Origin: Promethearchaeota archaeon
Lineage (GTDB): Archaea > Asgardarchaeota > Lokiarchaeia > Sigyniarchaeales > SOKP01
Length of the DNA: 62,406 nucleotides
Assembly: GCA_016840085.1 (NCBI GenBank)
Contig: JAEOTA010000034.1
Location: 1 to 62,406, forward strand
Direction of reading: 5' to 3'
Notes under the pieces: generated by a model
What the model saw: the letters and a program-made list of their open reading frames with translations, nothing else
Told to the model about the DNA's origin: nothing
Database searches by the model: none
Translations under genes and position numbers: made by a program
In this document: piece after piece, positions 7,675 to 21,739 of the stretch
Layout: every line of letters begins with the position of its first letter
Numbering within the stretch: position 1 is the first letter of the stretch

Positions 7675-8547
7675 TTATTTCATCAATAAATCCCTATTCA
7701 AGAGATATTCTCTAGGATAATATCGAATAACGCCCATCCCAGCAGTCCGGTTCGCTCCAACATTAGTATATTCTCCAACGCGAGATAAAATCTCCAACCA
7801 ACGGCAATTACCTGAATAATCTTCATTGACAAAATCTATATCATACTTTCGATTAAGTTCCTCTAAATAATGGACATAATAGTTTTTGTTTATCTTAGAA
7901 ACTTGGAAGCTCGCATTGCCTAATCCCCCAACAACAGGTATTTTTTTTCCAATCTCTGATCGCACCGTCCGCATCCTATAACCACTTATATATAGATGAG
8001 CATTTATCCAATTCAAAAATGGTTCTCGATCGAGTTTACATATTTCTGAAGCAAAATCATTCCAAATATTAACCAAATTCCCAAAAAGAAGGAGAGGAAT
8101 CGGAAATCGAACGGGATAATCGCCCATACTTGTATTAAAATAAATAAGCTTAACGAAATTTATGCTAAAGTTTTTAACTGGTTGAGATTTGTCAATAATT
8201 TGTTCCTTTAGATTAATTCGTTCGAATTTTACACTCGAAATATAATAATCTTTTTGACCAATTCTTAATTTAATTCGGTCATTTGAAATTAAATCTTTTA
8301 GCAATGTGTCGCTTAATTTATCATCAGCCGAAACTATTACGAAATCTAACTTTGGAATTTTTTTATGAATGATGCAATTTATTGAATAGGGGCGGACTTC
8401 CTCGTATTTATGAAGCTGATGGACTAACTCTGGCTTAATCTCATGGAGCCATTTCATTATGACGCCCCTGAATATATATCCATAAGGGTGCTCGTAAGGC
8501 TTAATCCGTCCGTCTTCTGGATAAAGCTCAAATGTTATTTTAATCAT
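7675..8547 (-). CDS. cas6: CRISPR-associated endoribonuclease Cas6
   Basis: C-terminal Gly-rich loop GEYTNVGANRTAGMG, LH...VRPYS, RFP.P..LF..L...WN. Last gene of the cas operon. Confidence 0.9.
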   Translation of the reverse strand: MIKITFELYPEDGRIKPYEHPYGYIFRGVIMKWLHEIKPELVHQLHKYEEVRPYSINCIIHKKIPKLDFVIVSADDKLSDTLLKDLISNDRIKLRIGQKDYYISSVKFERINLKEQIIDKSQPVKNFSINFVKLIYFNTSMGDYPVRFPIPLLLFGNLVNIWNDFASEICKLDREPFLNWINAHLYISGYRMRTVRSEIGKKIPVVGGLGNASFQVSKINKNYYVHYLEELNRKYDIDFVNEDYSGNCRWLEILSRVGEYTNVGANRTAGMGVIRYYPREYLLNRDLLMK

Positions 8548-8579
8548 ATGTATCTTCCGAAATATTATTTTTTTTAATT

Positions 8580-11225
8580 TTAATTTGACTTAAAATTCTC
8601 AAAATTTAATCCACATTCATCATATATTTTTTCGATATACTCATTTGAAATATAAATAAAATTTCTATCTAACGAATTTAGATTATATTTTTTTAAAAAA
8701 TGGGAAATACTTTTCATTTCTTCCTTATTTGCTCGATAATTTAAAATATTTGATTCAAATTTAGATTTTATAGTTAAATATTTGTCAAGTCTTTCTAATC
8801 TATCTTTTTCTTCTTTTATAGCTAAATATTCCATCCATATTTTATGTGAATCATTGTCAATATCCAAATAAAATTGGTAATTATATGTATTTTCAATTAA
8901 AACAAATTCTTTAGATATATCTGAGAAATTAAATCTTTGGATATCTTCGATTATATCTATTGAGTAATCTGGCGAGAAATATTTTTCATTAGTAATTTTT
9001 TTAAAATATTTATGTGACATATTAAACCATTCATTTTCAAATAATTCTAAAAATTCAGAATTTATAGTATTAATATTGTTAGATTTAAGAAGAATCTTTT
9101 TTGTTATTTTTAAAAGATCATAGTCATAAATGTAATTTGAAAAATAATCATCATTTTCTTTATCATATAACTTAATAATGTAAAATTCACCTTTATTTTG
9201 TGAACTATTATTACGATTACACCGCCCAGCCACTTGAATTAAAGAGTCTAAAGGTGCAAAATCGCGTATTACCAAATCAAAATCTAAATCTACACCAGCT
9301 TCTATAACTTGAGTGCTAATTAAGATTATTTTTTTTTGACTTTTTTTAATTTCAGGGATTAAATTTTTTATTTTTTTTATCAATTCTTGGCGCTGTTTAA
9401 CCAGAATGTCACTGGATAAGAAAAAAAGCTTTATTTTATTTGAATTCTTTTTTTCATTTTTAAGAGATTTGAAAAAATCTCTAGCAGATTTTCTAGTATT
9501 TAAAACACATAGAAAACTGTTAAAATCTTTTTTACTTTCGAATAGTTTTATAAATAATTTTAATAAATTATCGCTTTCAAAATTAAAATTTTTTTTGTTA
9601 ATTTCAGGTTGAATGAAGATTTTTATACGATTTAATTGATTAAAATATTCTTCTTTATTTTCTACTAGTTCATAGGATGTGTTTGGATCAAAAATCATGG
9701 GTAATGTTGCTGATACCAAAACAACTTTCATTTTAAACTTTTTTATAAATATTAAAAATATTTCTCTTATTAAATTCCAATACTTTAACGGAAAACATTG
9801 AATTTCATCTAAAATAATTATACTGTTCATTAATTTATGAAATTTTATGTTTAACATATTACGATTATAAAATAGGGAATAAAACAATTGATGAAATGTA
9901 GTTACAACGATATCAGCATTCCATCCTTCTATTAATAATTTAGCATCTAAACCAGCACTCATTTCATCGTCTAAACCCTTATAACTCATCTCAGTTCTAT
10001 GATTATGACACAATAATTTTTCCGAAGGTTTATTAGAATCAATCTTTAATATCTGTTGGAATGTCTCATTGATTTGATCAGTAATGCTTAAAAATGGTAA
10101 GCAATAAATAATTTTAGATTGACTAAGATTGATTTTAATTAAATTATCATTGTGCTGCATTGAAGATTTATAATTTATCATTTCGGAAATACAATTAATT
10201 ACTGAAATAGTTTTACCAAAACCTGTCGGCGCATTAAAGGTTAATATTTTATTTAAATTTTCTTTGTTATATTGGTGTATTTTCATTTTAGAATCATTAA
10301 ATATTTTATTACGATTAATATTTATTGGATTTAATTTATCAATTGTATTTTTTCTAATTTCTGTAATATATTGGTCAATTTGAGGTGGCAAATTCATTAA
10401 TGTCTTGTTCTTGCCTAAATCAATTGTCCCATCAAATGCAGCATCCATTTTATCAGATTCTAAAAATATAGAATTAATGATTTTAATCAGAAGAAAGAAA
10501 AATATTTTCTTATTTGGATTTTTCTTTCTTGAAATAAATTGTTTAAAATTCCTAACAATAAAAGGATAAATTGAGTTGGTATGAATTTTTTCAGATTTAC
10601 CAGTAACCATTTTTTCGATTATTTCTTTAACCTCATCAAATATTTTTGTGAATTCAATATCACTAAAATAAGACATGTTTTTTTTCAAGAAGTTTATATA
10701 CAAGTCTTTAAGATACGTGAAATTTTCTTCTAATGAATTAATTTGCTTAGTTAAGTAGTTTTTATTTCTATAATTTGTCGTTAATTCCCCTAATTGAGAA
10801 GATAAATTATTTAAATTCATATGATGGTCTCTAACGATTGTGAACCCTGCAATTATAAACAAACTTTTTACATTTTTTATAGGGTCATCCTCAGAATACT
10901 TTTCAAAATACATAACAAGAATTACTAAAGTAAACAATGAAGAAATGAGTGAATGTGAACTTAATTTTGAACGGTCTTTTTTACCCTTACTCAATTTATT
11001 TTGAAAGTATATCGTTGCCTTTCCCAAATCATGAGAAAAACCAATAATTCTTATATAATCTCTTAAAAAATCATTATATTGTCTAATACAACTAGTATCC
11101 AAAATTATTTTGAGTGACTTTAATGAATCATTAATTACATTTGAAATATGTTTTATTAAAGACTTATCTGTATGAGAGCAAATTTCCATAGAATTAGAAG
11201 AGAACGACATTCTCAATAAATTCAT
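8580..11225 (-). CDS. cas3: Cas3 HD nuclease-helicase
   Basis: HTDKSLIKH, HDLGK and HH (HD domain), APTGFGKT, DEIQ, SAT, STQVIEAGVDLDF, QVAGRCNR. True start is possibly the MEICSH Met. Confidence 0.95.
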   Translation of the reverse strand: MNLLRMSFSSNSMEICSHTDKSLIKHISNVINDSLKSLKIILDTSCIRQYNDFLRDYIRIIGFSHDLGKATIYFQNKLSKGKKDRSKLSSHSLISSLFTLVILVMYFEKYSEDDPIKNVKSLFIIAGFTIVRDHHMNLNNLSSQLGELTTNYRNKNYLTKQINSLEENFTYLKDLYINFLKKNMSYFSDIEFTKIFDEVKEIIEKMVTGKSEKIHTNSIYPFIVRNFKQFISRKKNPNKKIFFFLLIKIINSIFLESDKMDAAFDGTIDLGKNKTLMNLPPQIDQYITEIRKNTIDKLNPININRNKIFNDSKMKIHQYNKENLNKILTFNAPTGFGKTISVINCISEMINYKSSMQHNDNLIKINLSQSKIIYCLPFLSITDQINETFQQILKIDSNKPSEKLLCHNHRTEMSYKGLDDEMSAGLDAKLLIEGWNADIVVTTFHQLFYSLFYNRNMLNIKFHKLMNSIIILDEIQCFPLKYWNLIREIFLIFIKKFKMKVVLVSATLPMIFDPNTSYELVENKEEYFNQLNRIKIFIQPEINKKNFNFESDNLLKLFIKLFESKKDFNSFLCVLNTRKSARDFFKSLKNEKKNSNKIKLFFLSSDILVKQRQELIKKIKNLIPEIKKSQKKIILISTQVIEAGVDLDFDLVIRDFAPLDSLIQVAGRCNRNNSSQNKGEFYIIKLYDKENDDYFSNYIYDYDLLKITKKILLKSNNINTINSEFLELFENEWFNMSHKYFKKITNEKYFSPDYSIDIIEDIQRFNFSDISKEFVLIENTYNYQFYLDIDNDSHKIWMEYLAIKEEKDRLERLDKYLTIKSKFESNILNYRANKEEMKSISHFLKKYNLNSLDRNFIYISNEYIEKIYDECGLNFENFKSN

Positions 11226-12006
11226 TATTTTTGTTTTTTAATTTAAAAAATTCTTTTACTATTACCTTTATGGCTTTTCCTATAGGATTGTAAATTATGT
11301 TTTCATAACTCTTAACTATTCTCGGATATTCCATTATGTTTGGAGCATTTACTTTATATAAATTTGAAAAATTAAAATTAATTGGATTGCTTTGATCCAT
11401 ATCTATCAAACAGACCGGAACTACTGAACTAATTTTGACCTCACTGCTATTATTTTCTATCTTTTTCATTTGAAAAATTTCATTAAATTTAAAATTACAT
11501 ATAAATTCACTTATCCCCAAAAAAGGAGTATAATAACTTTTATGTTCCTTAATGTGCTCTGATAACTCATTAAAGTATTTATTTGTATTTGGATAATAAA
11601 TTCTGTACTTGGGTTTTTTAAGCAATTCTAACTTAGCTTGAGTGTGAGGAGATTGCCCCAACCATGCCATCCCTAAAAAAGCAGCAGTATCAGGCTTTGG
11701 AGGTAAGTTTAATATATCCAAGAATTCTTTATTCGACTCTGGAAAATTCCTTGAGGTTCTTGCTCTTGTATTTAACCAGTTTATCCCAACATATATTTTT
11801 TCAATAGGATTCAGAATTCTAATTCCAAATTTACATTTGAACATTTCATATCGTTCTTCAAATGATAGTCCTAGTATGGCACCAATAATCCCAGTTAAAG
11901 AAGTTTTAGGAGGGAATTCGTATGTTAAAGGTGAAGATGTAGTATAGAATTTCTTAAAGAAACCGAAATCTCCTGAAATGTCAAAAGTTAAACATTCCAC
12001 CGTCAT
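11194..12006 (-). CDS. cas5: type I-B Cas5 (Cas5h/Cas5b)
   Basis: FDISGDFGFFKKFYTTSSPLTYEFPPKTSLTGIIGAILG and YTPFLGISEF. Confidence 0.93.
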   Translation of the reverse strand: MTVECLTFDISGDFGFFKKFYTTSSPLTYEFPPKTSLTGIIGAILGLSFEERYEMFKCKFGIRILNPIEKIYVGINWLNTRARTSRNFPESNKEFLDILNLPPKPDTAAFLGMAWLGQSPHTQAKLELLKKPKYRIYYPNTNKYFNELSEHIKEHKSYYTPFLGISEFICNFKFNEIFQMKKIENNSSEVKISSVVPVCLIDMDQSNPINFNFSNLYKVNAPNIMEYPRIVKSYENIIYNPIGKAIKVIVKEFFKLKNKNNEFIENVVLF

Positions 12007-12019
12007 ATTAATATAAACC

Positions 12020-12973
12020 TTAAAAATCTAAATTTTCAATGGGTATATTCTGGCTTTTCCAGTCATTAATTAGATTTAGGATATCTTTATAACCTTTGAA
12101 TTCAGTGCTTGGATGTGCTTTAATAAATATCTTTTTAATTTTAGAAACATCTTGAATAACACTCTCCTTTAATGGTCCCATATCAAATAAAAATTCTGAA
12201 ATATCACGCAATGCCAGGTCATCTACAGATTGATCCTTTTTAGAAATCTTAATTAATTTATCAATTTGTCCTATGAAATATTCTGACTCATTATATTCTA
12301 ATTTTATTAACAAACGTGGAGAATGACCAACTTTAGATCTAGATTGTAATCGCTCCGTTCCTTTCCATAATCCTTTTAGTAATAATTCTAAGTCTTCATT
12401 AGTAAGTTTAGTAATCGCACCTAATTTTTCATTAATTATTCCATAAAATCTATATAAACCATAATGAATTATATAATCATTTCTAAATGTTCGTTGCATT
12501 GCTTTTTGTTTACCAGCGAACGCACCTGTTCCTTGTAAAAGAATTGGTTCAACTTTATGAATAGATCTACCAAAATTAAATTGAACTGGACCTGTTAATT
12601 GGATAGATTTCATTTTTTCACCTAAAGGTATGGCACAACCAAAAAGCCTCACATCTATACAGTTCTCTATTAATAAATCAGCAGGATCCACATTTTCATT
12701 CTTTTCTATAAAATCTTGTGCTCTTTCTCTAGCCATTTTAATTGTACCGTCATCTTTTTCAAATTCGTCAATTAATATGACTTGATTTTCGTAATCTCTT
12801 AAATAATCTCTTATGGTTCTTTTTAATCGAACATCTGTTACAATTCCTAAGCCTGTCTCCTCATCAATTCGAGGTTTATTCTCTGCTAATGGATCTCCAT
12901 TTGGATTATTGTCTCTAACATCGTAAAAAAAAGCCAATTCAGCACGATTTTCGATCAATTTATTTTTACTCAT
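12020..12973 (-). CDS. cas7: type I-B Cas7 (Csh2)
   Basis: NPNGDPL.ENKPRID, VTDVRLKRTIRDY, DVRLFG, LTGPVQF, SRSKVGHSPRL. Confidence 0.95.
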   Translation of the reverse strand: MSKNKLIENRAELAFFYDVRDNNPNGDPLAENKPRIDEETGLGIVTDVRLKRTIRDYLRDYENQVILIDEFEKDDGTIKMARERAQDFIEKNENVDPADLLIENCIDVRLFGCAIPLGEKMKSIQLTGPVQFNFGRSIHKVEPILLQGTGAFAGKQKAMQRTFRNDYIIHYGLYRFYGIINEKLGAITKLTNEDLELLLKGLWKGTERLQSRSKVGHSPRLLIKLEYNESEYFIGQIDKLIKISKKDQSVDDLALRDISEFLFDMGPLKESVIQDVSKIKKIFIKAHPSTEFKGYKDILNLINDWKSQNIPIENLDF

Positions 12974-13409
12974 TTTGTTCTTCCTCTTTTTTTTGCAATT
13001 TAAAATATTTATATGATGATAATCCGTGAGTAAAATACCAACTGAGTTCTATATTGGATAAATCCCATTTCGAACCTGCATCTTGAAGATATATTGATAT
13101 TTCACTTACTAGATTTGAATAAGGCCTTTGTAGGAGTTTCAATTTATTTACAACTTTTGGAAATAGCTCTAGAAGAATCCGATTATCTACTCGGAGATTA
13201 TGTAAGGAACTCCAAAAAGCCTCATTACCTTTCTTTTTAGGGTTCTGAACTCTCTGAACTTCAAGTAATAACCCTATTAGTACCCCCTCAAGAAAAACTG
13301 CTTTAGAAGGGATATTGATAAAAAAATCACTATACTTTTCAAAATATTGATTTATTTTATCTCTATAATTATCTTTTTTGCCTTTTTCATTATTAGATAT
13401 TTTTCTCAC
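12966..13409 (-). CDS. cas11: Cas11b-like small subunit (C-terminal part of Cas8b, in a separate frame)
   Basis: Helical protein with KAVFLEGVLIGLLLEVQ, F...L..L and YFTHGLS, which correspond to the C-terminal domain of TM1802/Csh1-type Cas8b. Start codon uncertain (GTG 13409). Confidence 0.75.
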   Translation of the reverse strand: MRKISNNEKGKKDNYRDKINQYFEKYSDFFINIPSKAVFLEGVLIGLLLEVQRVQNPKKKGNEAFWSSLHNLRVDNRILLELFPKVVNKLKLLQRPYSNLVSEISIYLQDAGSKWDLSNIELSWYFTHGLSSYKYFKLQKKEEEQNE

Positions 13410-14919
13410 CTTTGAAGATTAATTGATTTAATTTCTTAAATAAAAGTACGATAGGAATAAAATCCTTTATATTATAACTAACATTAATCGTACAAGAATT
13501 ATTTAAATATAAATTATTTTTCAATTTTTTAAAGAAAAATGTTAGAAATCTCTTAAAAGTTATATTTCTTCCTGTAAATAATATCCATAATGTTTGCAAA
13601 TATCGATCTCGATCAAAGTATTTTAATCTTTTATCATAAAATAAATTTTTTAAATTTTGGAACGAAAAAATCATTGGAAATTTATTGGCGTTAATTCCTG
13701 GAAATAATGGATGTGTATCAAAATCATCAACATTTTTTATTTCTTCATTAATTTTTCGAATTCTACTGGGAGAAATGTCCTGTATATGTAATAATATATT
13801 AAAAACAGACTTACCAGGACCAGTTAATTCATAAAATAAAAAATTAAAAACCATTGAATCCTTAAAGTCAGAAAGAATGTCTAAAATTAATTCCTCTCCT
13901 TGAGATAATTGCTCGTAAGTAATCTTCTTTGTAAGTAATTTATTTTTTATATTATTAAACTCATATAAAAACTCCATCATATTAGCTCCGGAGAATAGCA
14001 TTCGAGGTATTAAATGAAAACTAATTCCTCCTAGCTTAAAGTCAAATTGTTTCTTAAGTACGGCTCTCCCTATAAGTGCAAATAACGCACACTTCTCACA
14101 TACAGGATAATTTAAATATACTAATTTTTTATCAAATCCTCCAGCGATATACCCTCTTTTATCTGATGTATAGAAAGTAAAAGGTGAAAAGTTCCCTGAG
14201 ATTAATTTTTCAGACTTAGTATCGTGGCATAAACTGCAAACATTGATTTCTTTCACTTTTTTAAAGAGATAATCATTTATCAATTTTTCTTTAAAAACTT
14301 CAACGATTTCTTCTATTAAAGATGGTAATTTATTATCAATTTTAATACTTAAGACCGAGTTGACACTTGTACTAATGGCTTTTTCGTCATCAAATATTTC
14401 TAATTGTCTTTCTACTAACTGTTGTTTAACTTTTAGCAAATTCTTATCTAAAACTTTATTTATTTTAGATAAGAGTGTAAATTGTTGATACTTCTTGTTC
14501 TTCTCAAATTTATTGAAATATTTCTTAATATTTTTTAACGCACCATCAATACCTTTTTCTATTTTCTGCCGTGAACTTTCATCTCTTTTTCCTTTTGGAA
14601 CAATTTTCAACGTAGGTGTACTATATGCGCCTCCTCTGGCAGGAAAATTTAAAACTTTGTCATCGAAATTCTTTTTATAGACTTCTTGACTAATTTTAAC
14701 GAATTTTATTGCCTTATTTTGTTTCTTGAATTCTATAAAAAATATGTTTGGAAATTTGAAATCTTTATCTTTTTTAGCCAAAAAATTATCCATGTCAAAA
14801 GGAGGACTTGAAAAATATTGCACTAAATCTTTAAAATCTAACTCATTAACCTCTCCAAAGTTAATATTTTTTTCAATAGCAACAAATGCTTTTCCTAAAT
14901 TTACAATACTATCGATCAT
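13393..14919 (-). CDS. cas8b: type I-B large subunit Cas8b (TM1802/Csh1-type), lacking the C-terminal Cas11 portion
   Basis: MIDSIVNLG N-terminus, CSLC...FTFYTSDKRGYIAGGF...NYPVCEKC Zn motif, FHLIP. Lies upstream of cas7/cas5/cas3. Confidence 0.88.
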   Translation of the reverse strand: MIDSIVNLGKAFVAIEKNINFGEVNELDFKDLVQYFSSPPFDMDNFLAKKDKDFKFPNIFFIEFKKQNKAIKFVKISQEVYKKNFDDKVLNFPARGGAYSTPTLKIVPKGKRDESSRQKIEKGIDGALKNIKKYFNKFEKNKKYQQFTLLSKINKVLDKNLLKVKQQLVERQLEIFDDEKAISTSVNSVLSIKIDNKLPSLIEEIVEVFKEKLINDYLFKKVKEINVCSLCHDTKSEKLISGNFSPFTFYTSDKRGYIAGGFDKKLVYLNYPVCEKCALFALIGRAVLKKQFDFKLGGISFHLIPRMLFSGANMMEFLYEFNNIKNKLLTKKITYEQLSQGEELILDILSDFKDSMVFNFLFYELTGPGKSVFNILLHIQDISPSRIRKINEEIKNVDDFDTHPLFPGINANKFPMIFSFQNLKNLFYDKRLKYFDRDRYLQTLWILFTGRNITFKRFLTFFFKKLKNNLYLNNSCTINVSYNIKDFIPIVLLFKKLNQLIFKGEKNI

Positions 14920-15080: not shown

Positions 15081-16250
15081 TCAATTAAGTGCAAAAATTT
15101 CTGTATTTACATACTGTTGTCTATAAAGAAAATATGAGAATTCTTCGATTTTCCCGTGTTCTAAGTAGATTTTTTCGGGATTACAATTTTCAACAAATTT
15201 TTCTAATTCATTGAAGTCGCAATGGTCGCTAAACGGAATATATTTATCAGCGGGAAATTCTCTGCGGAACGATTCGTTCAAAACTTTTCCTGAAAGATAA
15301 ATTATTTTTGCACCCGTTGTAATTAAACTTTTATAAGGGTCGTTAAACATATAATAAGGGGGGATGAGAAGGATATAGTCGTTAAAATTTATTAACTGCT
15401 TTTTATTATAATTTCTGTAAGGCTCCCATTTATTAAATATAATCCCTTGATTTTCTAAAATCTTGGTTAATTTGGCAATATTTTTATCGAGTAGAATTCT
15501 ATGAGATGAACTTAAAGTGTTTAAAATAATTTGGCTTTTACCAAAGGCATACCCTAAAAGAATGACTGGATGCCCTTTAGATATTTCTTTTTCTATGTGT
15601 TCATTTAAATCTTTTTGAATTTCTTGAGATCTAGGAAAAATAAAATTTGGAGCCCCAAATGTGCACTCCATAATTAAGCGATCACATTTAATCGGCTTTA
15701 ACCCTTTAATAACTCGTTGTCCATTAAGTAATGCACGATCTTCGGTAATAAAATCACTTGTATAAAGAATTTTCTCAGAACCCTCAATGAATAAGCTCAA
15801 AGAGCCATAAGTATGTCCATTCTCTAGTAATGTCAATGAAATTCCATTGTAATCAACTGATTGAGGATAGTTTTTATCTCTTCCAAGTAACCATGAACTT
15901 TCAGGTAAATTAAATTTTCCTCTTGAGCGAACTTTTGCTATTTCTTTTGTAATTTTAGAGCAGAGATATTTTGGTTGAGATTCTTTATTTTCCAAATCTT
16001 TTGAGATTTCTTCTGGAATGTTTGGAATATGATCCATGTGAGCATGTGATACAAAAATAATATCGGCGTTAGGGTTCAAATGGTCTATAGCAATATTAAC
16101 CCCGTCAATGTAAATATTAATTCCAAAATTTTTATCATAACCAATGTCAATACTTTTATTTCTATATTTAGACTCTTGTGTTCTGCTCTGAAGGTTATTC
16201 ACAAACGCTTTAAATTTTTTGAGTGGACTGGATTCAAAATTATTTTTCAT
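15081..16250 (-). CDS. metallo-beta-lactamase / beta-CASP nuclease inside the cas operon
   Basis: All motifs present: IAID, SHAHMDH, NGHTYGS, YTSDF, MECTFG.P, GYAFGKSQ, FSDHCDF and LEHG. Starts 22 nt after the cas4 stop. Confidence 0.9.
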   Translation of the reverse strand: MKNNFESSPLKKFKAFVNNLQSRTQESKYRNKSIDIGYDKNFGINIYIDGVNIAIDHLNPNADIIFVSHAHMDHIPNIPEEISKDLENKESQPKYLCSKITKEIAKVRSRGKFNLPESSWLLGRDKNYPQSVDYNGISLTLLENGHTYGSLSLFIEGSEKILYTSDFITEDRALLNGQRVIKGLKPIKCDRLIMECTFGAPNFIFPRSQEIQKDLNEHIEKEISKGHPVILLGYAFGKSQIILNTLSSSHRILLDKNIAKLTKILENQGIIFNKWEPYRNYNKKQLINFNDYILLIPPYYMFNDPYKSLITTGAKIIYLSGKVLNESFRREFPADKYIPFSDHCDFNELEKFVENCNPEKIYLEHGKIEEFSYFLYRQQYVNTEIFALN

Positions 16251-16272
16251 AATATAATCATATCTTCTGTAA

Positions 16273-16962
16273 TTATCCTCTTAAACAATAATTTCGGCAT
16301 TCACAATCAATACATTTCCCTTTATCTCTCGTTGGATTGGGCATTTTTTCAGACGCTAATAATTTTTTAATTTGCTCAATTATATTCATAACTTTTAGCT
16401 TATCTTCTATTCCAATTAGATAATCGACTACTTTACCGTGTTTGGAATAATATACGCGCACTTTTTTAACTAAAAAATCAAAATTCTTTTCAATTAAAAT
16501 TGCTTGAGCAGTTACTTGATATTTATGGGGATTATCAATGCCCTCAGGTGGAATGTTTCCTGATTTTATTTCCACTGGATATGCTTCTTTTCCATCGAAT
16601 TCAAAATAATCGATTAAACCAACTAAACCAAGCTCAGAGTCTGTTAAGTAAACATTGTAATATTTTTGAGCGTAGCCATCTTTCGATTTATTTGCCATTT
16701 TCTGAAGCTTTTCGTGTTTTTTGGCTCCAAATTCCATTTTATAAGTCTGTTTCATAGGGGAATGGAGTATATATCTAAAAAATATAATCCTTTTACAGTA
16801 GGAAAATTGCCTCACTTCTTCCGTGCCAATGAATGGTCTATCATAAAGATTGATCCATGGGTTATTTTTTCTTATTTCGTTTAATTGATGCTTATTTAAT
16901 CTAAACTGTTTTAAATCGATTATATTTTCCTTTTGAACTTTATTTTCCATATATTCTTTCAC
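16273..16962 (-). CDS. cas4: Cas4 nuclease
   Basis: FSYCKR, G...H, GLIDY, PVEIK, QVTAQA and C-terminal CIDCECRNYC (4Fe-4S ligands). Confidence 0.93.
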   Translation of the reverse strand: MKEYMENKVQKENIIDLKQFRLNKHQLNEIRKNNPWINLYDRPFIGTEEVRQFSYCKRIIFFRYILHSPMKQTYKMEFGAKKHEKLQKMANKSKDGYAQKYYNVYLTDSELGLVGLIDYFEFDGKEAYPVEIKSGNIPPEGIDNPHKYQVTAQAILIEKNFDFLVKKVRVYYSKHGKVVDYLIGIEDKLKVMNIIEQIKKLLASEKMPNPTRDKGKCIDCECRNYCLRG

Positions 16963-16997
16963 TTAATTGTTTATTATGATTGAAAATGCACATTTAA

Positions 16998-17300
16998 TTA
17001 CATTGAAAGTATATCTTCGATAATTTTATATCCCTCTCCGAACTTAGACTTAACAGTTATGACTTTTGAATGGCATTTTTCGCAAATCGGGATTATCCGA
17101 ACATCCCCGGGCACATCTTTAAGGAGCTTTTTTAACCTCAATGCAATTTCTTCTGCACGATTAAATGTTAGCTCGCCGAAAAAAACCGAATAATTGAGAC
17201 GAATTAGATTATAAGACAATAACATGTTCGAAATTTTTGTCCGAAACAGATCAAATTCAACAGGTATATCATAAATAATTATAAATCTCGTTAAATTCAC
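16998..17300 (-). CDS. cas2: Cas2
   Basis: IIIYDIP, RLNYSVFFGEL, DVRIIPICEKC. Lies between cas1 and cas4. Confidence 0.92.
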   Translation of the reverse strand: MNLTRFIIIYDIPVEFDLFRTKISNMLLSYNLIRLNYSVFFGELTFNRAEEIALRLKKLLKDVPGDVRIIPICEKCHSKVITVKSKFGEGYKIIEDILSM

Positions 17301-17355
17301 CTATTTTTTTTAATTTCTGATTTATTATTTTTAATTTTATTTTTCTTATTTCAAA

Positions 17356-18435
17356 CTACCAATTCATAATAAATGGCTCATAGCTTGATGATGCCCCTAT
17401 CAAGTAATTTGCTAATTTTCTCGCTTGTCGAACCATTTCTTTTTTGTAATTTAATTTTACAGTTTTTCCTTTTTCGCTTTTTTCATGGGGTTTTTCAAAT
17501 AATTCTTCCGACTTGCTACCACCCATAATCTCCTTCCGTAATTCGTTATAGTAAAAGGATTTTTTGTCATCACTTAATCGATAGCCCTGTAAAGTGTTTT
17601 CAAAATCGTCTACTTTGAATTGTCCTTTCTGGATTAACCGGGCAACTAATCTATCAATAACAGGCTGTCGGAATTCTTCAAGCAAGTCCAAAGCTAAAGA
17701 AGGCTTACCGGAGCGGTCACTGTGTAAAAATCCGCCATATAATTCTAATCCTGCTGCCGCAATTGAGGTTGTAATATGGCCTTGAAGTACCGTATAGCCT
17801 AACGATAATAATGAATTCATTGGATCTTTTGGAGGACGCCTTGTTCTCGTAAAAATTTTAAATTCTTTAGGAAATAAATTCCTGTATTCTAAAAAATATG
17901 TTGCCGTTGCCTTTCCTTCTAATCCCATTAACTCCATTCGAATATTATAGACTTTTTTGCCTTTCGCAAAATGCTTTGAGAATCGTAATAACGAGTCCCT
18001 CATCCTTCCAATATGTCTCGAGGCTGCCTTTAAACGCATATATTTCTTAGGATTTGATTGCTTTCGATTTTTAGCAAAATAAAGCAATAATCGCCGTTTA
18101 TTTTCTATCGCAGCATATACAAATTGAGACGCCAAATGACAGCCACGCCAATCTTCATAGGCTAATAACTGTTGCCTTCTCGTAAAAACTGTACCTACAT
18201 TCGCAAACGGTGTGTATAAGCCATAAGGTTTTCCTAACGATGTATAAACTATATTTACGGCGTAAAAAGATAGCGAATGTAGAGCTTGTGAGGTAATTTG
18301 GACTCCGTTCCCTACGATAATACTTTCAACCTCTCGTAAAGGAACTTCAATAGGGTTTTTATCAGGAACGGAAACTTTTAACATTTCTTGTTTTTTTCCA
18401 ACCCTTGTCCCTGGTGTTTCTAAAATTATATCCAA
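17356..18435 (-). CDS. cas1: Cas1 integrase
   Basis: LMGLEGKATATYF, RRPPKDPMNSLLSLGY, GFLH...SLALDLLEEFRQPVID. TTG start with upstream GGAGG. Confidence 0.96.
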   Translation of the reverse strand: MDIILETPGTRVGKKQEMLKVSVPDKNPIEVPLREVESIIVGNGVQITSQALHSLSFYAVNIVYTSLGKPYGLYTPFANVGTVFTRRQQLLAYEDWRGCHLASQFVYAAIENKRRLLLYFAKNRKQSNPKKYMRLKAASRHIGRMRDSLLRFSKHFAKGKKVYNIRMELMGLEGKATATYFLEYRNLFPKEFKIFTRTRRPPKDPMNSLLSLGYTVLQGHITTSIAAAGLELYGGFLHSDRSGKPSLALDLLEEFRQPVIDRLVARLIQKGQFKVDDFENTLQGYRLSDDKKSFYYNELRKEIMGGSKSEELFEKPHEKSEKGKTVKLNYKKEMVRQARKLANYLIGASSSYEPFIMNW

Positions 18436-18467
18436 TCCATTCCAACCTCCTTTCTTAATTATTTTTT

Positions 18468-19799
18468 TTAATAGACTTTCCTTCCGATTAGATCGTACAT
18501 ACTTAATAGCATAGGCTTATCCGAAATGTTCGAATTAACGATCAATATAGGACCTAAGGCACATAAAATTTCATATATCTCTAACTCTTTAGCCAACGCT
18601 TTAAAGTTGATAAAAGATATATTTCCAAATGTCTTAGTAATATCAAAAAAAGTCAGACCAGCCTTATGCTCTATCGCGTTTCTCGAAAACTCTGCGATTT
18701 CTTTTATATCCAACATTTCTTTAAAATTATCTTCGAAAGCATGCCTTAAATCAAATGATAATGGCGTAAAATACTTGTAAAGTTCGATAAACTGTAGGAT
18801 TTCAATATCAATCTCTTTTAAAATTCCTTTCAACAATACCTTTAAAAAAGATAAAGGCTTCTCAAAAAAATTATAAATAAATCGCTTTATTTCAAAATTT
18901 CTATAATATCTTAGAAAATTTATTAAAATCCATTGGCCTAAAGCGTAATTATTTAATGAATTATTAATATTTGAATAAGTAGAGATTAATTTTACTTTAT
19001 ATTCGCCAAAAAACGAGTTATTAATAATATTTTCGGGATTTTTATCATTATTATTAAACTTTTCAATACACGATTCGAGAACCAGAAATATCTTATTTAA
19101 CATCTTTTCTAAAATCTCTATATTCATAATTCTGTTTGAATAACCCAAAATTAAACCTAATAAACTTCCTTCCCATATCATATGGTATTTGAGAGCATCC
19201 AACGATCCGATTATCACCTTTAAAGTCGAATCGCCCACCATTATTAAACCAATCGCGTGATTTTTTAAACATGGATTTGTCCGTTCTGAACCAATTGGAT
19301 ATCCGCACTTTGGCGCAAATAAATCCTCACATATAACCCGCTGTTTAAAGTTTTTGTTTTTAGTAGGGTTAGCAAAATTATTATTATAAACCTCTTTAAG
19401 ACAATTCCAATATCCATAATACACCTTAGAAAAACACCTTGAACACAATAATACAGGTAAAAAATCAATTGAACATTTAAGATTATCTAAAATTTTGCCG
19501 CAATACGAGCATTCTCTCTCCATAGAAAATTTCATGTTTATTTTGCCAAAAAATAAGGATAACTGCGACTCATAGCCTTCCGATTTTATATCAATATAAG
19601 GATACCATCTTCCTAATAAAGGGCGAAATATAAAACGCTTTATAACTTTTGTTGGATAAAGTAGGGTTAAAATGTTCTTAGTGCAATCGTCTGATATTTC
19701 CTGAATTATTTCTTTTAAACCTCCTCCTATCGCCTTATCGTCTGATGTATTAAAATCTAAAATCATTGAGATATTTACCTTAAAACTTTTTTTATGCAA
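18468..19799 (-). CDS. Cys-rich DUF2797-like protein heading the cas1 operon
   Basis: RECSYCG...CSRC...C...C...C...CLKNHAIGLIMVGDSTLKVIIG...WEG and C-terminal LGPILIV...LIGRKVY resemble the DUF2797 pattern (C..H.vYLa...lKVG.t...dQGA and G.yLi...G..v). Ends 32 nt before cas1. Confidence 0.6.
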   Translation of the reverse strand: MHKKSFKVNISMILDFNTSDDKAIGGGLKEIIQEISDDCTKNILTLLYPTKVIKRFIFRPLLGRWYPYIDIKSEGYESQLSLFFGKINMKFSMERECSYCGKILDNLKCSIDFLPVLLCSRCFSKVYYGYWNCLKEVYNNNFANPTKNKNFKQRVICEDLFAPKCGYPIGSERTNPCLKNHAIGLIMVGDSTLKVIIGSLDALKYHMIWEGSLLGLILGYSNRIMNIEILEKMLNKIFLVLESCIEKFNNNDKNPENIINNSFFGEYKVKLISTYSNINNSLNNYALGQWILINFLRYYRNFEIKRFIYNFFEKPLSFLKVLLKGILKEIDIEILQFIELYKYFTPLSFDLRHAFEDNFKEMLDIKEIAEFSRNAIEHKAGLTFFDITKTFGNISFINFKALAKELEIYEILCALGPILIVNSNISDKPMLLSMYDLIGRKVY

Positions 19800-20599
19800 A
19801 AAATTATCTCTAAGTGAGCGGATTTGGGATATATGGCCCTTTAATATATTTTAAAAAAATATTCTGATTAAATTTTCGCTCGGATGTAGCTTAAATCTTA
19901 TCGCCTTATTTTAGTATTAATTTACACTGTTCTTTTTCTGGAATTTTGTCTCAAAAGAAATTTTTTGCAATTAGATATTAACATATTGATATAAAGAAAT
20001 TATACCATTAATATATATTTTTGATTCTTCTATTAATAATACTATTCATTAAAAATTCAAAATATTTACATTTTAATTCGACTAAAATTTTTCTTAAGAC
20101 TAATTCTAAACGCTTATCCTACGCATAATAATAGTTTGTCTGTAAAAAGCGATGTTAAAAAGACAATTATAACGTTAAAATTGATATAAACTTTTTTTTT
20201 CTCATTTCCTTAAACCTTTAAGCTCTCAAGTTTTTAACAAAATTTATTGATCTAAAATCTCGGCAAAAATATATTTAAACTATTTAAATAATTTCGAGCA
20301 TTGATCCAAATTTTTTACATTTTTATAGAAGAGAATTTTTTTAATAAATTAAATTTCTACAAACATCTTTTTTTTCAAGAAAAAGTTAATTTGATCACAT
20401 GAAATTGTTGGATTTTTAAGGTCTTTCGATTAAGTGGGTATCTTAAAAAAAATTAGAAAATATTTAATTTAATCAAAATTAGACTACTTCATCGTTAAAT
20501 ACGGAAAAATAAAAAAGTTTTTTAGCGTTTTCCTCGAACCAAATTTCGTCGAGCTTCTTTTTAAATAAATTGCAAATTGTTTGATGCTCGATTAATGAT

Positions 20600-20805
20600 C
20601 GTAGAAAATAACTTTTTTGTTATTAAAGTTTGAAAGAAATAAATCAAAAAGAGAGAATATTCCTATAAAAATAAAGCAGATTTTTTGATAAAACAATAAT
20701 TTTGGAAAAAAATATTGAAAATTTTTTATTTTAATATGAAATTTTTATTAAGTTAACAAAAATTAAATATACTTTTTTTTCATATTATATTATATAGTAA
20801 CTAGA
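20600..20805 (+). promoter_or_regulatory. CRISPR leader (AT-rich), boundaries approximate
   Basis: Non-coding, extremely AT-rich stretch directly before the first repeat, on the side facing the cas genes. TATA-like runs near 20760-20800. Confidence 0.6.
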
Positions 20806-21739
20806 GTCGCATAGAAAATAGCTTCAAATAGAAGATTGAAATTATGTGCATTTTGCAATATGAGAGATTTCTACATCAAGTCGCATAGAAAATAGCTTCA
20901 AATAGAAGATTGAAATTATATATTAACGCTTAAACATCCGATACAAATAATTAAAGTCGCATAGAAAATAGCTTCAAATAGAAGATTGAAATTACTGAAT
21001 TTTAATTGAGTCATTTAGAAATATCTCCAAGTCGCATAGAAAATAGCTTCAAATAGAAGATTGAAATTTGCGTATTCACCCGGCAGTACTATCATTAATT
21101 CGTTGTCGCATAGAAAATAGCTTCAAATAGAAGATTGAAATCAACCATTCACACCGTTAATGGTTTGAAACCATATCAGCGTCGCATAGAAAATAGCTTC
21201 AAATAGAAGATTGAAATATAAAATAAAGGTGATATATAAAAAATGCCTGAAGGGTCGCATAGAAAATAGCTTCAAATAGAAGATTGAAATTCCGCCTTAA
21301 GTAAATCTGAAGCAATATCTTTCCATAGTCGCATAGAAAATAGCTTCAAATAGAAGATTGAAATACAAAAGATGTAACACTCACAACAGGAGCAACTGGA
21401 CTGTCGCATAGAAAATAGCTTCAAATAGAAGATTGAAATGACTTTAAGAAAACAGCTAAATATATCAAACAGAGAAGGTCGCATAGAAAATAGCTTCAAA
21501 TAGAAGATTGAAATAACTGAAATTCATCACTTTCACGACAAGCAAATCGAGTCGCATAGAAAATAGCTTCAAATAGAAGATTGAAATTCAGATATCATAC
21601 AATCATTACCAATTGTAATTGGGTCGCATAGAAAATAGCTTCAAATAGAAGATTGAAATTAAAATGACTCGCTTTATAGCATTTGAAGGACGTGGTACAT
21701 TAGTCGCATAGAAAATAGCTTCAAATAGAAGATTGAAAT
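20806..21739 (+). CRISPR. CRISPR array: 13 identical 37-nt repeats GTCGCATAGAAAATAGCTTCAAATAGAAGATTGAAAT, 12 spacers of 35-43 nt
   Basis: Repeats start at 20806, 20880, 20956, 21031, 21105, 21181, 21254, 21328, 21403, 21478, 21551, 21623 and 21703. The CTTC-aaata-GAAG hairpin directly before the 8-nt handle ATTGAAAT gives + orientation. Confidence 0.99.

What the first reader, a model, noticed from the sequence alone, without database searches (positions are those of the whole stretch)
15081..19799. Candidate new CRISPR adaptation module: DUF2797-like + cas1 + cas2 + cas4 + beta-CASP nuclease in one operon
Seen: five co-oriented minus-strand genes with gaps of only 32, 55, 35 and 22 nt. The canonical cas1-cas2-cas4 core is flanked on both sides by non-canonical genes and is set off from cas8b by a 161-nt gap. 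Known: standard I-B adaptation needs only Cas1/2/4, and some systems recruit accessory trimming nucleases (DnaQ/DEDDh). I do not know a described module with this pair of partners. Inference: an expanded spacer-acquisition machine, in which the beta-CASP enzyme generates or trims prespacers and the Zn protein is a scaffold, sensor or regulator.
Basis: partly seen in the sequence, partly recalled or inferred. Interest (0 to 1): 0.85.

Follow-up and report, generated by a model that had tools for sequence, protein, structure and literature searches.

The report
Five-gene CRISPR adaptation cassette, Lokiarchaea
In one group of Asgard (Loki) archaea, the three usual spacer-capture genes (cas1, cas2, cas4) always travel with two extra genes, an enlarged and probably inactive zinc-binding DUF2797 relative and an intact beta-CASP nuclease; this suggests a built-in DNA-processing helper, but the first extra gene is already in a 2023 catalogue and neither has been tested.

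Summary
Five co-oriented minus-strand genes (X, cas1, cas2, cas4, beta-CASP) have gaps of 32, 55, 35 and 22 nt. A CRISPR array lies on one side and a type I-B effector operon on the other.

The cassette is conserved. All 14 related Loki loci keep the same order, and X is present wherever the contig reaches. In 400 Asgard genomes, X, this beta-CASP subfamily and this Cas1 clade occur in exactly the same 11 genomes. None of 72 loci with more distant beta-CASP relatives has these cas genes. The neighbouring effector module differs between loci (I-B, I-D and others), so both extras belong to the adaptation module.

X is a remote, enlarged DUF2797 relative with two Cys4 clusters. Short DUF2797 proteins also sit directly upstream of cas1 across Asgard archaea and keep a GIY-YIG-like core. 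X has lost those motif residues. The beta-CASP keeps all catalytic motifs.

The module is not wholly new. The supplement of Altae-Tran et al. 2023 lists this very gene as the UAS-44 representative, 'Acquisition (DUF2797 large zinc finger protein)'. I found no published mention of the beta-CASP partner or of the five-gene unit.

This scan has already noted the same cassette in at least five other genomes. The proposed mechanism is inferred, not shown.

The parts
18468..19766 (-). X: a 432-aa enlarged DUF2797-family zinc protein and first gene of the cassette (an alternative TTG start lies at 19799). It has two Cys4 clusters, a degenerate GIY-YIG-like core, a helical insert of about 130 aa, and an N+C-terminal small beta-barrel.
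   Evidence: No Pfam, NCBIfam or PADLOC hit. Invariant residues are C86, C89, C108, C111, C122, C146, C154 and C166. AF2 model: pLDDT 79, pTM 0.80. Atlas match to a DUF2797 cluster: TM 0.50/0.69. hhalign to short DUF2797: 98.6%. Coordinates equal the UAS-44 representative.
17356..18435 (-). cas1 (359 aa)
   Evidence: PF01867 E 7.6e-73; TIGR00287 227 bits. Belongs to a clade with 66% identity or more that is found only with X and the beta-CASP.
16998..17300 (-). cas2 (100 aa)
   Evidence: PF09827 E 4.2e-15; TIGR01573.
16273..16962 (-). cas4 (229 aa)
   Evidence: TIGR00372 129.8 bits; PF01930.
15081..16250 (-). A 389-aa minimal beta-CASP metallo-beta-lactamase nuclease, last gene of the cassette.
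   Evidence: TIGR04122 E 1.4e-35 (below cut-off); PF07521/PF07522. MBL motifs 1-4 and beta-CASP motifs A, B and C are conserved in 47 family members. The family is Loki-only, 42-76% identical, with a sharp drop to 33% or less outside it.
20806..21664 (+). CRISPR array with 37-nt repeats and spacers of about 36-39 nt. An AT-rich stretch of about 1 kb (19767-20805) separates it from the start of X. Transcription on the + strand is inferred from the ATTGAAAT repeat end.
   Evidence: TRF. The sequence shows one further repeat at 20806-20842. The same repeat family lies upstream of X in L001, L003, L006 and L011.
7675..14919 (-). Context: the type I-B interference operon, consisting of cas8b (13393-14919), a small-subunit-like ORF (12966-13409), cas7, cas5, cas3 and cas6. 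It is not part of the conserved cassette.
   Evidence: Pfam/NCBIfam. cas6 was assigned by clustering with the PF10040 proteins of other loci.

Best explanation
This is a conserved five-gene CRISPR spacer-acquisition cassette, X-cas1-cas2-cas4-betaCASP. It is restricted to one family-level group of Lokiarchaea (Promethearchaeota). It moves as a unit, together with its CRISPR repeat type, between different type I effector modules.

Shown: strict co-occurrence and gene order; independence from the effector type; homology of X to DUF2797; intact catalytic motifs in the beta-CASP.

Inferred mechanism: Cas1-Cas2 integrates spacers and Cas4 trims the PAM-side 3' overhang, as in other Cas4 systems. 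The beta-CASP enzyme is an active metal-dependent nuclease whose closest curated family is the DNA-ligase-associated repair exonuclease. It would supply a dedicated DNA-end processing step, either 5'-to-3' resection that produces 3'-overhang prespacers or trimming of the non-PAM end. In bacteria, host enzymes such as RecBCD or DnaQ-type exonucleases do this work. X descends from a cas1-linked DUF2797 protein with a GIY-YIG-like nuclease core. It has lost the motif residues and gained a helical insert. It most likely acts as a zinc-dependent, non-catalytic DNA-binding or scaffolding subunit that docks on Cas1-Cas2.
For: - Gene order: all 14 related Loki loci carry cas1-cas2-cas4 directly upstream of the beta-CASP in the same order, with X upstream of cas1 in 13 of 13 loci where the contig reaches. 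None of 72 loci holding more distant beta-CASP relatives (35% identity or less) has any of these genes.
- Co-occurrence: in 400 Asgard genomes, strong X hits, strong beta-CASP hits (E<=1e-88) and Cas1 at 66% identity or more fall in the same 11 genomes, on the same contigs.
- Effector independence: downstream effectors differ. They are I-B (window, L008, L009), a Cst1/DevR type (L001), a two-Cas7 variant (L006, L012) and I-D (L011). Sister Cas1 sequences carry different effectors.
- Divergent variants: two divergent relatives keep the gene set. L111 has the order betaCASP-X-cas1...cas4-cas8b, with hhalign 98.8% and 96.8%. L110 keeps the order with a 563-aa beta-CASP.
- Activity of the arrays: arrays next to the cassette are large, about 75 repeats in L006. 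This points to active acquisition.
- Beta-CASP catalytic residues: D56, H69, H71, D73, H74, H146, D166, E195, H343 and H365 are conserved in 42-47 of 47 members.
- Identity of X: the X profile finds PF10977 proteins at E 5e-7 to 4e-4 among 1.84 billion proteins. hhalign gives 98.6%. All five such short proteins sit directly upstream of cas1.
- Generality of the DUF2797-cas1 pair: 24 of 28 other Asgard Cas1 hits have a DUF2797 hit immediately upstream.
- Nuclease fold and its loss: for the short-form model, the three best of 48,161 PDB chains are GIY-YIG nucleases (At-HIGLE Z 5.6, Slx1 Z 5.3 and 5.1), with I-TevI at rank 7 and UvrC-N at rank 12. X replaces the residues conserved in the short form: Y173 to G, G185 to I/L, E198 to W/R.
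- Complex prediction: Cas1+Cas2+X gave weak support. The score was 0.50 (runs 0.53, 0.00, 0.50) and the best of 3 controls was 0.00. The mark was reached by 58 of 80 solved complexes and 2 of 110 mismatched pairs. At 0.60 or under it was reached by only 7 of those 80 and by both mismatches. The runs agree in at least 0% of contacts, and the partner's pLDDT is at least 69.
- Related accessory nuclease: a PolB-exo-like RNase_H_2 (DEDD) exonuclease directly follows the beta-CASP in two loci. That is a class of enzyme already known to trim prespacers.
Against: There are no expression, interaction or activity data.

The beta-CASP substrate is unresolved:
- Its TIGR04122 score is far below the cut-off.
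- PDB profile hits to RNA enzymes (CPSF73, Ysh1, about 5e-18) are at least as strong as those to DNA enzymes (Apollo, Artemis, about 1e-12).
- Motif C is His, as in CPSF73-type RNA enzymes (from my knowledge of Callebaut et al. 2002).
- The nearest non-CRISPR Asgard paralogues lie beside proteasome or transporter genes, not beside a ligase.

The GIY-YIG link is weak. It rests on moderate Z-scores below 8. hhalign against a GIY-YIG domain alignment found nothing, and Foldseek found nothing. Calling X inactive is therefore an inference from alignment alone.

The complex prediction is only a weak pass, and one run scored 0.
Confidence: 0.55

Rival explanations
1. The beta-CASP enzyme acts on RNA, not on prespacer DNA. 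It could trim the repeat-derived 3' handle of crRNAs after Cas6 cleavage, or process array or leader transcripts. It would travel with cas1-cas2-cas4 only because the repeat type travels with them.
For: - The strongest PDB profile hits are RNA-processing beta-CASP enzymes: CPSF73, Ysh1 and archaeal CPSF.
- PF07521, the 'RNA specificity domain', is the top Pfam hit.
- Motif C is His.
- The repeat family is conserved with the cassette.
- A non-CRISPR Asgard paralogue sits next to proteasome subunit genes. From my own knowledge, that setting is typical of archaeal RNA-processing beta-CASP genes.
Against: - The gene is always the immediate neighbour of cas4, never of cas6 or the effector genes, which swap freely.
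- The best curated family is the DNA-ligase-associated exonuclease, E 1.4e-35, against 7e-18 for aCPSF1.
- In some loci a DNA-type DEDD exonuclease is added right after it.
- Exonucleolytic trimming needs no repeat-specific enzyme.
Confidence: 0.2
2. One or both extra proteins act after integration or as a safeguard, not in prespacer supply. They might process flaps or gaps in the half-site or full-site integration intermediate at the leader-repeat junction, or they might regulate or restrict acquisition.
For: - The closest curated family of the beta-CASP is a DNA-damage-response exonuclease that works with a ligase.
- X has zinc ribbons and a dead nuclease-like core suited to binding DNA structures.
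- The cassette starts about 1 kb from the leader-proximal repeat.
Against: - No ligase or polymerase is linked.
- Host repair normally fills integration gaps.
- Nothing here tells this role apart from prespacer processing.
Confidence: 0.15
3. The flanking genes are chance or hitch-hiking neighbours with no role in CRISPR.
For: No experimental link exists. The general DUF2797 and beta-CASP families are mostly not CRISPR-associated.
Against: - Co-occurrence and gene order are perfect across 14 loci and 11 of 400 genomes.
- The gene set is retained after rearrangement in L111.
- It is retained across effector swaps.
- The DUF2797-cas1 pairing recurs in a second, distant subfamily.
Confidence: 0.02

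Closest known systems
UAS-44, 'Acquisition (DUF2797 large zinc finger protein)', and UAS-13, 'Acquisition (DUF2797)', in the supplement of Altae-Tran et al. 2023, Science (PMC10910872)
   Same: The UAS-44 representative is given as GCA_016840085.1, contig JAEOTA010000034, 18467_19766, minus strand. Those are the coordinates and strand of X in this window. It is catalogued as linked to CRISPR acquisition modules, with score 8 / 9.2. UAS-13 matches the short cas1-linked DUF2797 form.
   Different: The catalogue gives only a name and an association score. In the text I could search, I found no mention of the beta-CASP partner, the five-gene unit, the loss of nuclease-type residues in X, or any experiment. 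The figure images are not held.
Accessory prespacer-trimming nucleases of CRISPR adaptation: Cas4, DnaQ/DEDDh domains fused to Cas2 or Cas1, and host ExoT/DnaQ (from my own knowledge; the catalogue also lists UAS-48, 'Cas2 + 3'-5' proofreading exonuclease', and the RNaseH entries UAS-3 and UAS-45)
   Same: An extra nuclease gene is encoded inside the adaptation operon. Some loci of this cassette add a DEDD-type RNase_H_2 exonuclease as well.
   Different: The fold is beta-CASP/MBL, not DEDD or PD-(D/E)xK. DNA-acting beta-CASP enzymes typically work 5'-to-3' or as endonucleases, which differs in polarity from the known 3'-5' trimmers. The activity here is untested.
Ligase-associated DNA damage response exonuclease (NCBIfam TIGR04122)
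   Same: It is the best-scoring curated family (E 1.4e-35, aligned over residues 46-381). Both are minimal beta-CASP proteins without extra domains.
   Different: The score of 122.7 bits is far below the 325-bit cut-off. This protein has an N-terminal extension of about 45 aa. Identity to those proteins is 33% or less. It has no ligase neighbour and an obligate cas context.
Cas14, the beta-CASP effector nuclease of type VII CRISPR-Cas
   Same: Both are beta-CASP nucleases encoded in a CRISPR-cas locus, and both occur in archaea including Asgard lineages.
   Different: The NF045584 score is 49.7 bits against a cut-off of 800. This protein has 389 aa against about 610, has no Cas10-like C-terminal domain, and sits next to cas4 in an adaptation module. 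[quoted passage not shown]
GIY-YIG nucleases (Slx1, At-HIGLE, I-TevI, UvrC N-terminal domain), and the claim in bioRxiv 10.64898/2026.10.10.758204 that DUF2797 hides a GIY-YIG-like fold
   Same: The core of the short cas1-linked DUF2797 model has GIY-YIG nucleases as its three best PDB matches. It also carries a VYL...IKVG.SR...YRLLEQG pattern.
   Different: The Z-scores are only 5.1-5.6. The profile-profile comparison is negative. In X the Tyr and Gly positions and the conserved Glu are replaced.

Membership tests
DUF2797 (Pfam PF10977) | Match to the Pfam HMM above the gathering score (25 bits) | tested here: not met
   hmmscan of X and 17 homologues at E<=10 gives no PF10977 hit. The own genome has no PF10977 match.
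DUF2797 (Pfam PF10977) | Detectable homology to bona fide members by profile methods and fold | tested here: met
   The X profile finds four PF10977 proteins at E 5e-7 to 4e-4 in 1.84 billion sequences. hhalign gives 98.6%, E 5e-16, over 164 columns. The Atlas match to a DUF2797 cluster has TM 0.50/0.69 with 252 residues aligned. Eight Cys plus P56, Q68, G200 and G428 are invariant across both forms.
UAS-44 (Altae-Tran et al. 2023) | The same protein cluster as the catalogue's representative, linked to acquisition genes | tested here: met
   The representative's coordinates, 18467_19766 on the minus strand, equal the X gene in the window. The contig length of 62,406 equals the window length.
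GIY-YIG nuclease superfamily (X itself) | Conserved Tyr (GIY), Tyr/Gly (YIG), Arg and Glu catalytic residues | tested here: not met
   At positions where the short cas1-linked DUF2797 proteins have Y, G, R/K and E, the X family has G (11/12), I/L, variable residues and W/R. This depends on the alignment.
GIY-YIG nuclease superfamily (short DUF2797 relatives) | GIY-YIG fold | tested here: inconclusive
   In VIA-align the three best of 48,161 chains are GIY-YIG nucleases, but at Z 5.1-5.6. Foldseek found nothing. hhalign against the PF01541 domain alignment gave probability 0.09.
beta-CASP metallo-beta-lactamase nucleases | MBL motifs 1-4 (D, HxHxDH, H, D) and beta-CASP motifs A (D/E), B (H) and C (H/V) | tested here: met
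   D56, H69, H71, D73, H74, H146, D166, E195, H343 and H365 are present in the window protein and conserved in 42-47 of 47 family members.
Ligase-associated DNA damage response exonuclease (TIGR04122) | Score above the curated cut-off (325 bits) | tested here: not met
   122.7 bits.
Ligase-associated DNA damage response exonuclease (TIGR04122) | Genomic association with an ATP-dependent DNA ligase | tested here: not met
   No ligase in the window cassette or in any of the 14 related loci.
Type VII Cas14 | Score above the NF045584 cut-off, a Cas10-like C-terminal domain, and an operon with cas7 and cas5 but no adaptation genes | tested here: not met
   49.7 bits against 800. The protein has 389 aa with no C-terminal domain. 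It is adjacent to cas4.
Type I-B CRISPR-Cas (the locus as a whole) | Cas8b, Cas7 (Csh2), Cas5h, Cas3, Cas6, Cas1, Cas2, Cas4 and a CRISPR array | tested here: met
   cas8b is split from a small-subunit-like ORF, which I did not study further.

The most novel reading that the evidence does not exclude
The cassette is a self-contained prespacer factory for archaea, which lack RecBCD. The beta-CASP enzyme resects 5' strands of foreign DNA ends to make the 3'-overhang duplexes that Cas1-Cas2-Cas4 captures. X is a dead GIY-YIG/zinc subunit that holds the nuclease or the DNA on the integrase. On this reading the DUF2797 family as a whole would be an unrecognised core adaptation protein of Asgard CRISPR systems: an active nuclease in the short form, replaced in function by the beta-CASP in the long form.
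Probability: 0.3. Interest if true: 0.75.

Novelty: new variant of a known kind. Interest (0 to 1): 0.55.

Why it matters
How prespacers are produced and trimmed in archaea is poorly understood, because the known helper enzymes are bacterial (RecBCD, DnaQ-type exonucleases). A nuclease and a zinc protein that are inherited with cas1-cas2-cas4 through several effector swaps are strong candidates for dedicated adaptation factors. Testing them would show whether a beta-CASP enzyme can serve in spacer capture. It would also show what the DUF2797 family does, and this family accompanies most Cas1 genes of this clade across Asgard archaea. A compact, self-sufficient acquisition cassette could also be useful for CRISPR-based molecular recording. 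The value is tempered in three ways: half of the association is already catalogued, the scan has met the cassette repeatedly, and nothing has been measured.

Tried and rejected
- Foldseek against the PDB found nothing at E<=0.001 for the X model or the short DUF2797 model.
- VIA-align of the full X model gave only small beta-barrel matches (BAH/Tudor/SH3-like, Z<=4.7) and weak GIY-YIG rows (Z 3.0-3.3).
- hhalign of the short DUF2797 alignment against a GIY-YIG (PF01541) domain alignment built from Loki genomes gave probability 0.09.
- hhalign of the X profile against the 499-aa protein upstream of cas1 in L110 matched only the zinc-ribbon segment (probability 60%), so its identity is left open.
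- PADLOC-DB, NCBIfam and Pfam have no model that recognises X, the beta-CASP or the short DUF2797 as cas-associated.
- Literature: searches for Asgard + Cas1 + Cas4 + beta-CASP, for Lokiarchaeota + CRISPR + metallo-beta-lactamase, and for DUF2797 or PF10977 found no description of the cassette. The 2025 CRISPR classification mentions beta-CASP only for type VII. The 2020 Asgard CRISPR paper by Makarova et al. (PMC7307682) is not held, so I could not check it.
- Expression: no RNA holder was listed for the region, so co-transcription could not be examined.
- I expected the nearest non-CRISPR beta-CASP relatives to sit beside a DNA ligase. The three I examined do not: the ORF beside the L016 copy had no Pfam hit, and the G307 and G011 copies lie beside transporter/regulator and proteasome genes.
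- One regex script for repeats timed out and was replaced by TRF runs.
- The type VII Cas14 reading was considered and rejected (see the membership test).

Full report
**What is in the window.** The region is AT-rich, about 27-31% G+C. On the minus strand lie, in transcription order:
- X, at 18468-19799 as an ORF. The likely start is the ATG at 19766, giving 432 aa.
- cas1 at 17356-18435, cas2 at 16998-17300 and cas4 at 16273-16962.
- A 389-aa MBL/beta-CASP gene at 15081-16250.

A CRISPR array with a 37-nt repeat lies at 20806-21664, and about 1 kb of AT-rich DNA separates it from the start of X. The repeat ends in ATTGAAAT on the + strand. I therefore infer that the array is read away from the cas genes and that the leader faces X.

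**Is the arrangement conserved?** The beta-CASP protein belongs to a sharply bounded family of about 53 proteins. All those that a source names come from Promethearchaeota (Lokiarchaeota). They are 42-76% identical to the window protein. The next relatives, mostly from ammonia-oxidising Nitrososphaerota, are 33% identical or less. X has 16 close relatives by word search and 26 full-length cluster representatives by exhaustive profile search; those that a source names are again Promethearchaeota.

I fetched loci through individual proteins and through a scan of species-representative genomes. I then located all five genes by tblastn and by clustering of neighbouring ORFs.
- All 14 Loki loci have cas1-cas2-cas4 immediately upstream of the beta-CASP gene in the same order.
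- X precedes cas1 in all 13 loci where the contig extends far enough.
- None of the 72 loci that hold more distant beta-CASP relatives has cas1, cas2, cas4 or X.

Whole-genome searches of 400 Asgard genomes point the same way. Strong X matches, strong beta-CASP matches (E<=1e-88) and Cas1 at 66% identity or more occur in exactly the same 11 genomes, 12 copies in all, on the same contigs about 3.4 kb apart. The next Cas1 is only 46% identical. Within the window's own genus only 2 of 54 genomes (the window's included) carry the cassette, as expected for a mobile defence module.

**Which module do the extra genes belong to?** The genes downstream of the beta-CASP differ between loci:
- Cas8b-type I-B in the window, L008 and L009.
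- A Cst1/DevR type in L001.
- A variant with two Cas7 genes and two unknown large proteins in L006 and L012.
- I-D (Csa3, an 872-aa large subunit, Csc2, Cas3, Cas6) in L011.
- No effector directly adjacent in L003, L005 and L007.

In a Cas1 tree, the cassette's Cas1 proteins form one split with 100/100 support on a long stem. Sister pairs carry different effectors: the window (I-B) pairs with L001, and L006 pairs with L011 (I-D). The CRISPR repeat family stays with the cassette. Some arrays are large, about 75 repeats in L006, which suggests acquisition is active.

Two divergent relatives keep the gene set.
- In L111, from another family of the same order, the order is betaCASP-like, X-like, cas1, then cas4 and cas8b. 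hhalign probabilities are 98.8% and 96.8%.
- In L110 the order is an unknown 499-aa protein, cas1, a 290-aa cas2, cas4 and a 563-aa beta-CASP.

Keeping the same partners after rearrangement is good evidence for functional linkage.

**What is X?** No Pfam, NCBIfam or PADLOC model matches it. The family alignment shows eight invariant cysteines. C86, C89, C108 and C111 form a zinc-ribbon pattern, and C122, C146, C154 and C166 form a second cluster. The AlphaFold2 model is confident (pLDDT 79, pTM 0.80). It has no clear PDB match. In the ESM Atlas it matches a DUF2797 cluster at TM 0.50 by the model and 0.69 by the hit, with 252 residues aligned.

The exhaustive profile search recovers four proteins of about 303 aa at E 5e-7 to 4e-4, and these pass Pfam's DUF2797 threshold. 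hhalign between the two groups gives 98.6% probability.

Every one of the five short relatives I looked up lies directly upstream of cas1-cas2, often with cas4 and with overlapping or nearly abutting stop and start codons. They come from Helarchaeota and Lokiarchaeota. Cross-referencing two genome searches shows that 24 of the 28 Asgard Cas1 hits outside the cassette's own clade have a DUF2797 hit immediately upstream on the same strand. None of those short-form modules is linked to a beta-CASP gene.

[quoted passage not shown] I modelled a short cas1-linked member (pLDDT 81). In an all-against-all search of 48,161 PDB chains, the three best matches are GIY-YIG nucleases: At-HIGLE at Z 5.6, and Slx1 at Z 5.3 and 5.1. 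I-TevI and the UvrC N-terminal domain are at ranks 7 and 12. These scores are moderate. Foldseek and a profile-profile comparison with a GIY-YIG domain alignment are negative. I therefore treat the fold assignment as likely but not established.

The short forms share a VYL...IKVG.SR...YRLLEQG pattern. In the X family the first Tyr is Gly in 11 of 12 sequences, the Gly is Ile or Leu, the basic position is variable, and the Glu is Trp or Arg. X therefore looks like a derivative that has lost the putative active site while keeping both zinc sites. A complex prediction of Cas1+Cas2+X gave only weak support. The score was 0.50 (runs 0.53, 0.00, 0.50) and the best control was 0.00. At 0.60 or under, only 7 of the 80 solved calibration complexes reached the mark, as did both mismatched pairs that passed. 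The runs agree in at least 0% of contacts, and the partner's pLDDT is at least 69.

**What is the beta-CASP protein?** All MBL motifs and beta-CASP motifs A, B and C are present and conserved across 47 members, so it is predicted to be active. Its best curated family is the ligase-associated DNA-damage-response exonuclease TIGR04122, at E 1.4e-35 but 122.7 bits against a 325-bit cut-off. Weaker matches follow to aCPSF1 and to the type VII effector Cas14, at 49.7 bits against 800. It is not Cas14: it is minimal in size, lacks the Cas10-like domain and sits in an adaptation module, which type VII loci lack.

Against solved structures it is about equally distant from RNA enzymes (CPSF73, Ysh1) and DNA enzymes (Apollo, Artemis, SNM1A). 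The nearest non-CRISPR Asgard paralogues lie beside proteasome or transporter genes, not beside a ligase. The substrate is therefore open. I favour DNA for three reasons: the gene is an invariant neighbour of cas4, it is independent of cas6 and the effector genes, and in two loci a DEDD-type exonuclease (RNase_H_2, PolB-exo-like) is added right behind it.

**Most likely mechanism (inferred).** Cas1-Cas2 integrates and Cas4 defines the PAM end. The beta-CASP nuclease supplies end resection or trimming of prespacer DNA, which in bacteria is borrowed from host enzymes. X, a zinc-bound dead-nuclease relative, binds DNA or bridges the nuclease to the integrase. The short, apparently intact DUF2797 form never co-occurs with the beta-CASP, and the degenerate long form always does. 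This fits a hand-over of the cutting role, but it is only a correlation.

The rivals are an RNA role for the beta-CASP (crRNA 3' trimming), a post-integration repair or control role, and chance. Chance is effectively excluded.

**Comparison with the literature and novelty.** [quoted passage not shown] Those are the coordinates of X in this window. It also lists 'UAS-13, Acquisition, 6 / 7.9 (DUF2797)'. The main text mentions adaptation modules linked to RNaseH (UAS-3, UAS-45) but not DUF2797.

Searching the supplement for MBL, metallo-beta-lactamase, CPSF, RMMBL and beta-CASP returns only type VII material. The only other full-text hits for DUF2797 are unrelated to CRISPR, apart from the fold preprint. 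I could not read Makarova et al. 2020 on Asgard CRISPR diversity.

So the link between X and acquisition genes is already catalogued, with this very gene as the exemplar, but it is untested. The following appear not to be described in what I could search:
- The obligate beta-CASP partner.
- The five-gene unit and its effector swapping.
- The degenerate state of X.
- The near-universal DUF2797-cas1 pairing in this Asgard Cas1 clade.

The same cassette has been noted by this scan in at least five other genomes. I class it as a new variant of a known kind, a CRISPR adaptation module with accessory nucleases. Interest is moderate to good.

Noticed in passing
L110:2711-3583 and L110:4375-6066 (G144, contig C191): In a divergent version of the cassette, Cas2 has 290 aa. 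The Cas2 domain covers only residues 3-88, and the C-terminal extension of about 200 aa has no family. The beta-CASP has 563 aa, with an unassigned N-terminal part of about 300 aa. The 499-aa first gene matches X only in the zinc-ribbon segment.
   Followed up: partly
L111:4971-9803 (G130, contig C91): A rearranged variant has the order betaCASP-like (361 aa), X-like (467 aa), then a 465-aa Cas1 whose Pfam match is split in two (an insertion), then cas4 and cas8b.
   Followed up: partly
L003:13746-14723, L007:11239-12216, L011:35-1033: A 325-aa RNase_H_2 (PF13482) protein with PolB-exonuclease-like matches follows the beta-CASP gene directly in two loci. In a third it lies on the far side of the array. 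It may correspond to the 'RNaseH' acquisition-linked entries (UAS-3/UAS-45) of Altae-Tran et al. 2023.
   Followed up: partly
L015:3978-5104: In this locus the beta-CASP gene is split into two ORFs (173 + 195 aa) and is followed by reversed cas3 fragments. This is a decaying copy or an assembly error.
   Followed up: no
window 12966-14919: Cas8b (508 aa) and a 147-aa ORF matching the C-terminal part of the same TM1802 model lie in different frames and overlap by 17 nt. This is either a split large subunit or a separately encoded small subunit. Another first-stage note covers it.
   Followed up: no
G011:C42 (L113:5221-7598): A non-CRISPR paralogue of the beta-CASP (344 aa) lies directly after two proteasome subunit genes. 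In other Asgard families such paralogues are near-universal (for example 30 of 31 and 19 of 19 genomes). The window's own family has only the cas-linked form (10 of 134).
   Followed up: partly
Asgard genomes of family f31: ORFs of about 300 aa match only positions 120-298 of the short DUF2797 profile (E 1e-14 to 1e-8). They occur in 70 of 89 genomes in the three lumped families that include f31, and the ones I cross-checked are not next to cas1. They are probably a housekeeping DUF2797 branch distinct from the cas1-linked one.
   Followed up: no
L004:10062-10529 versus L005:3239-3901: Two records of what appears to be the same locus differ in cas4: 155 aa in the JGI contig and 220 aa in the NCBI MAG. 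This points to a frameshift or an assembly difference.
   Followed up: no
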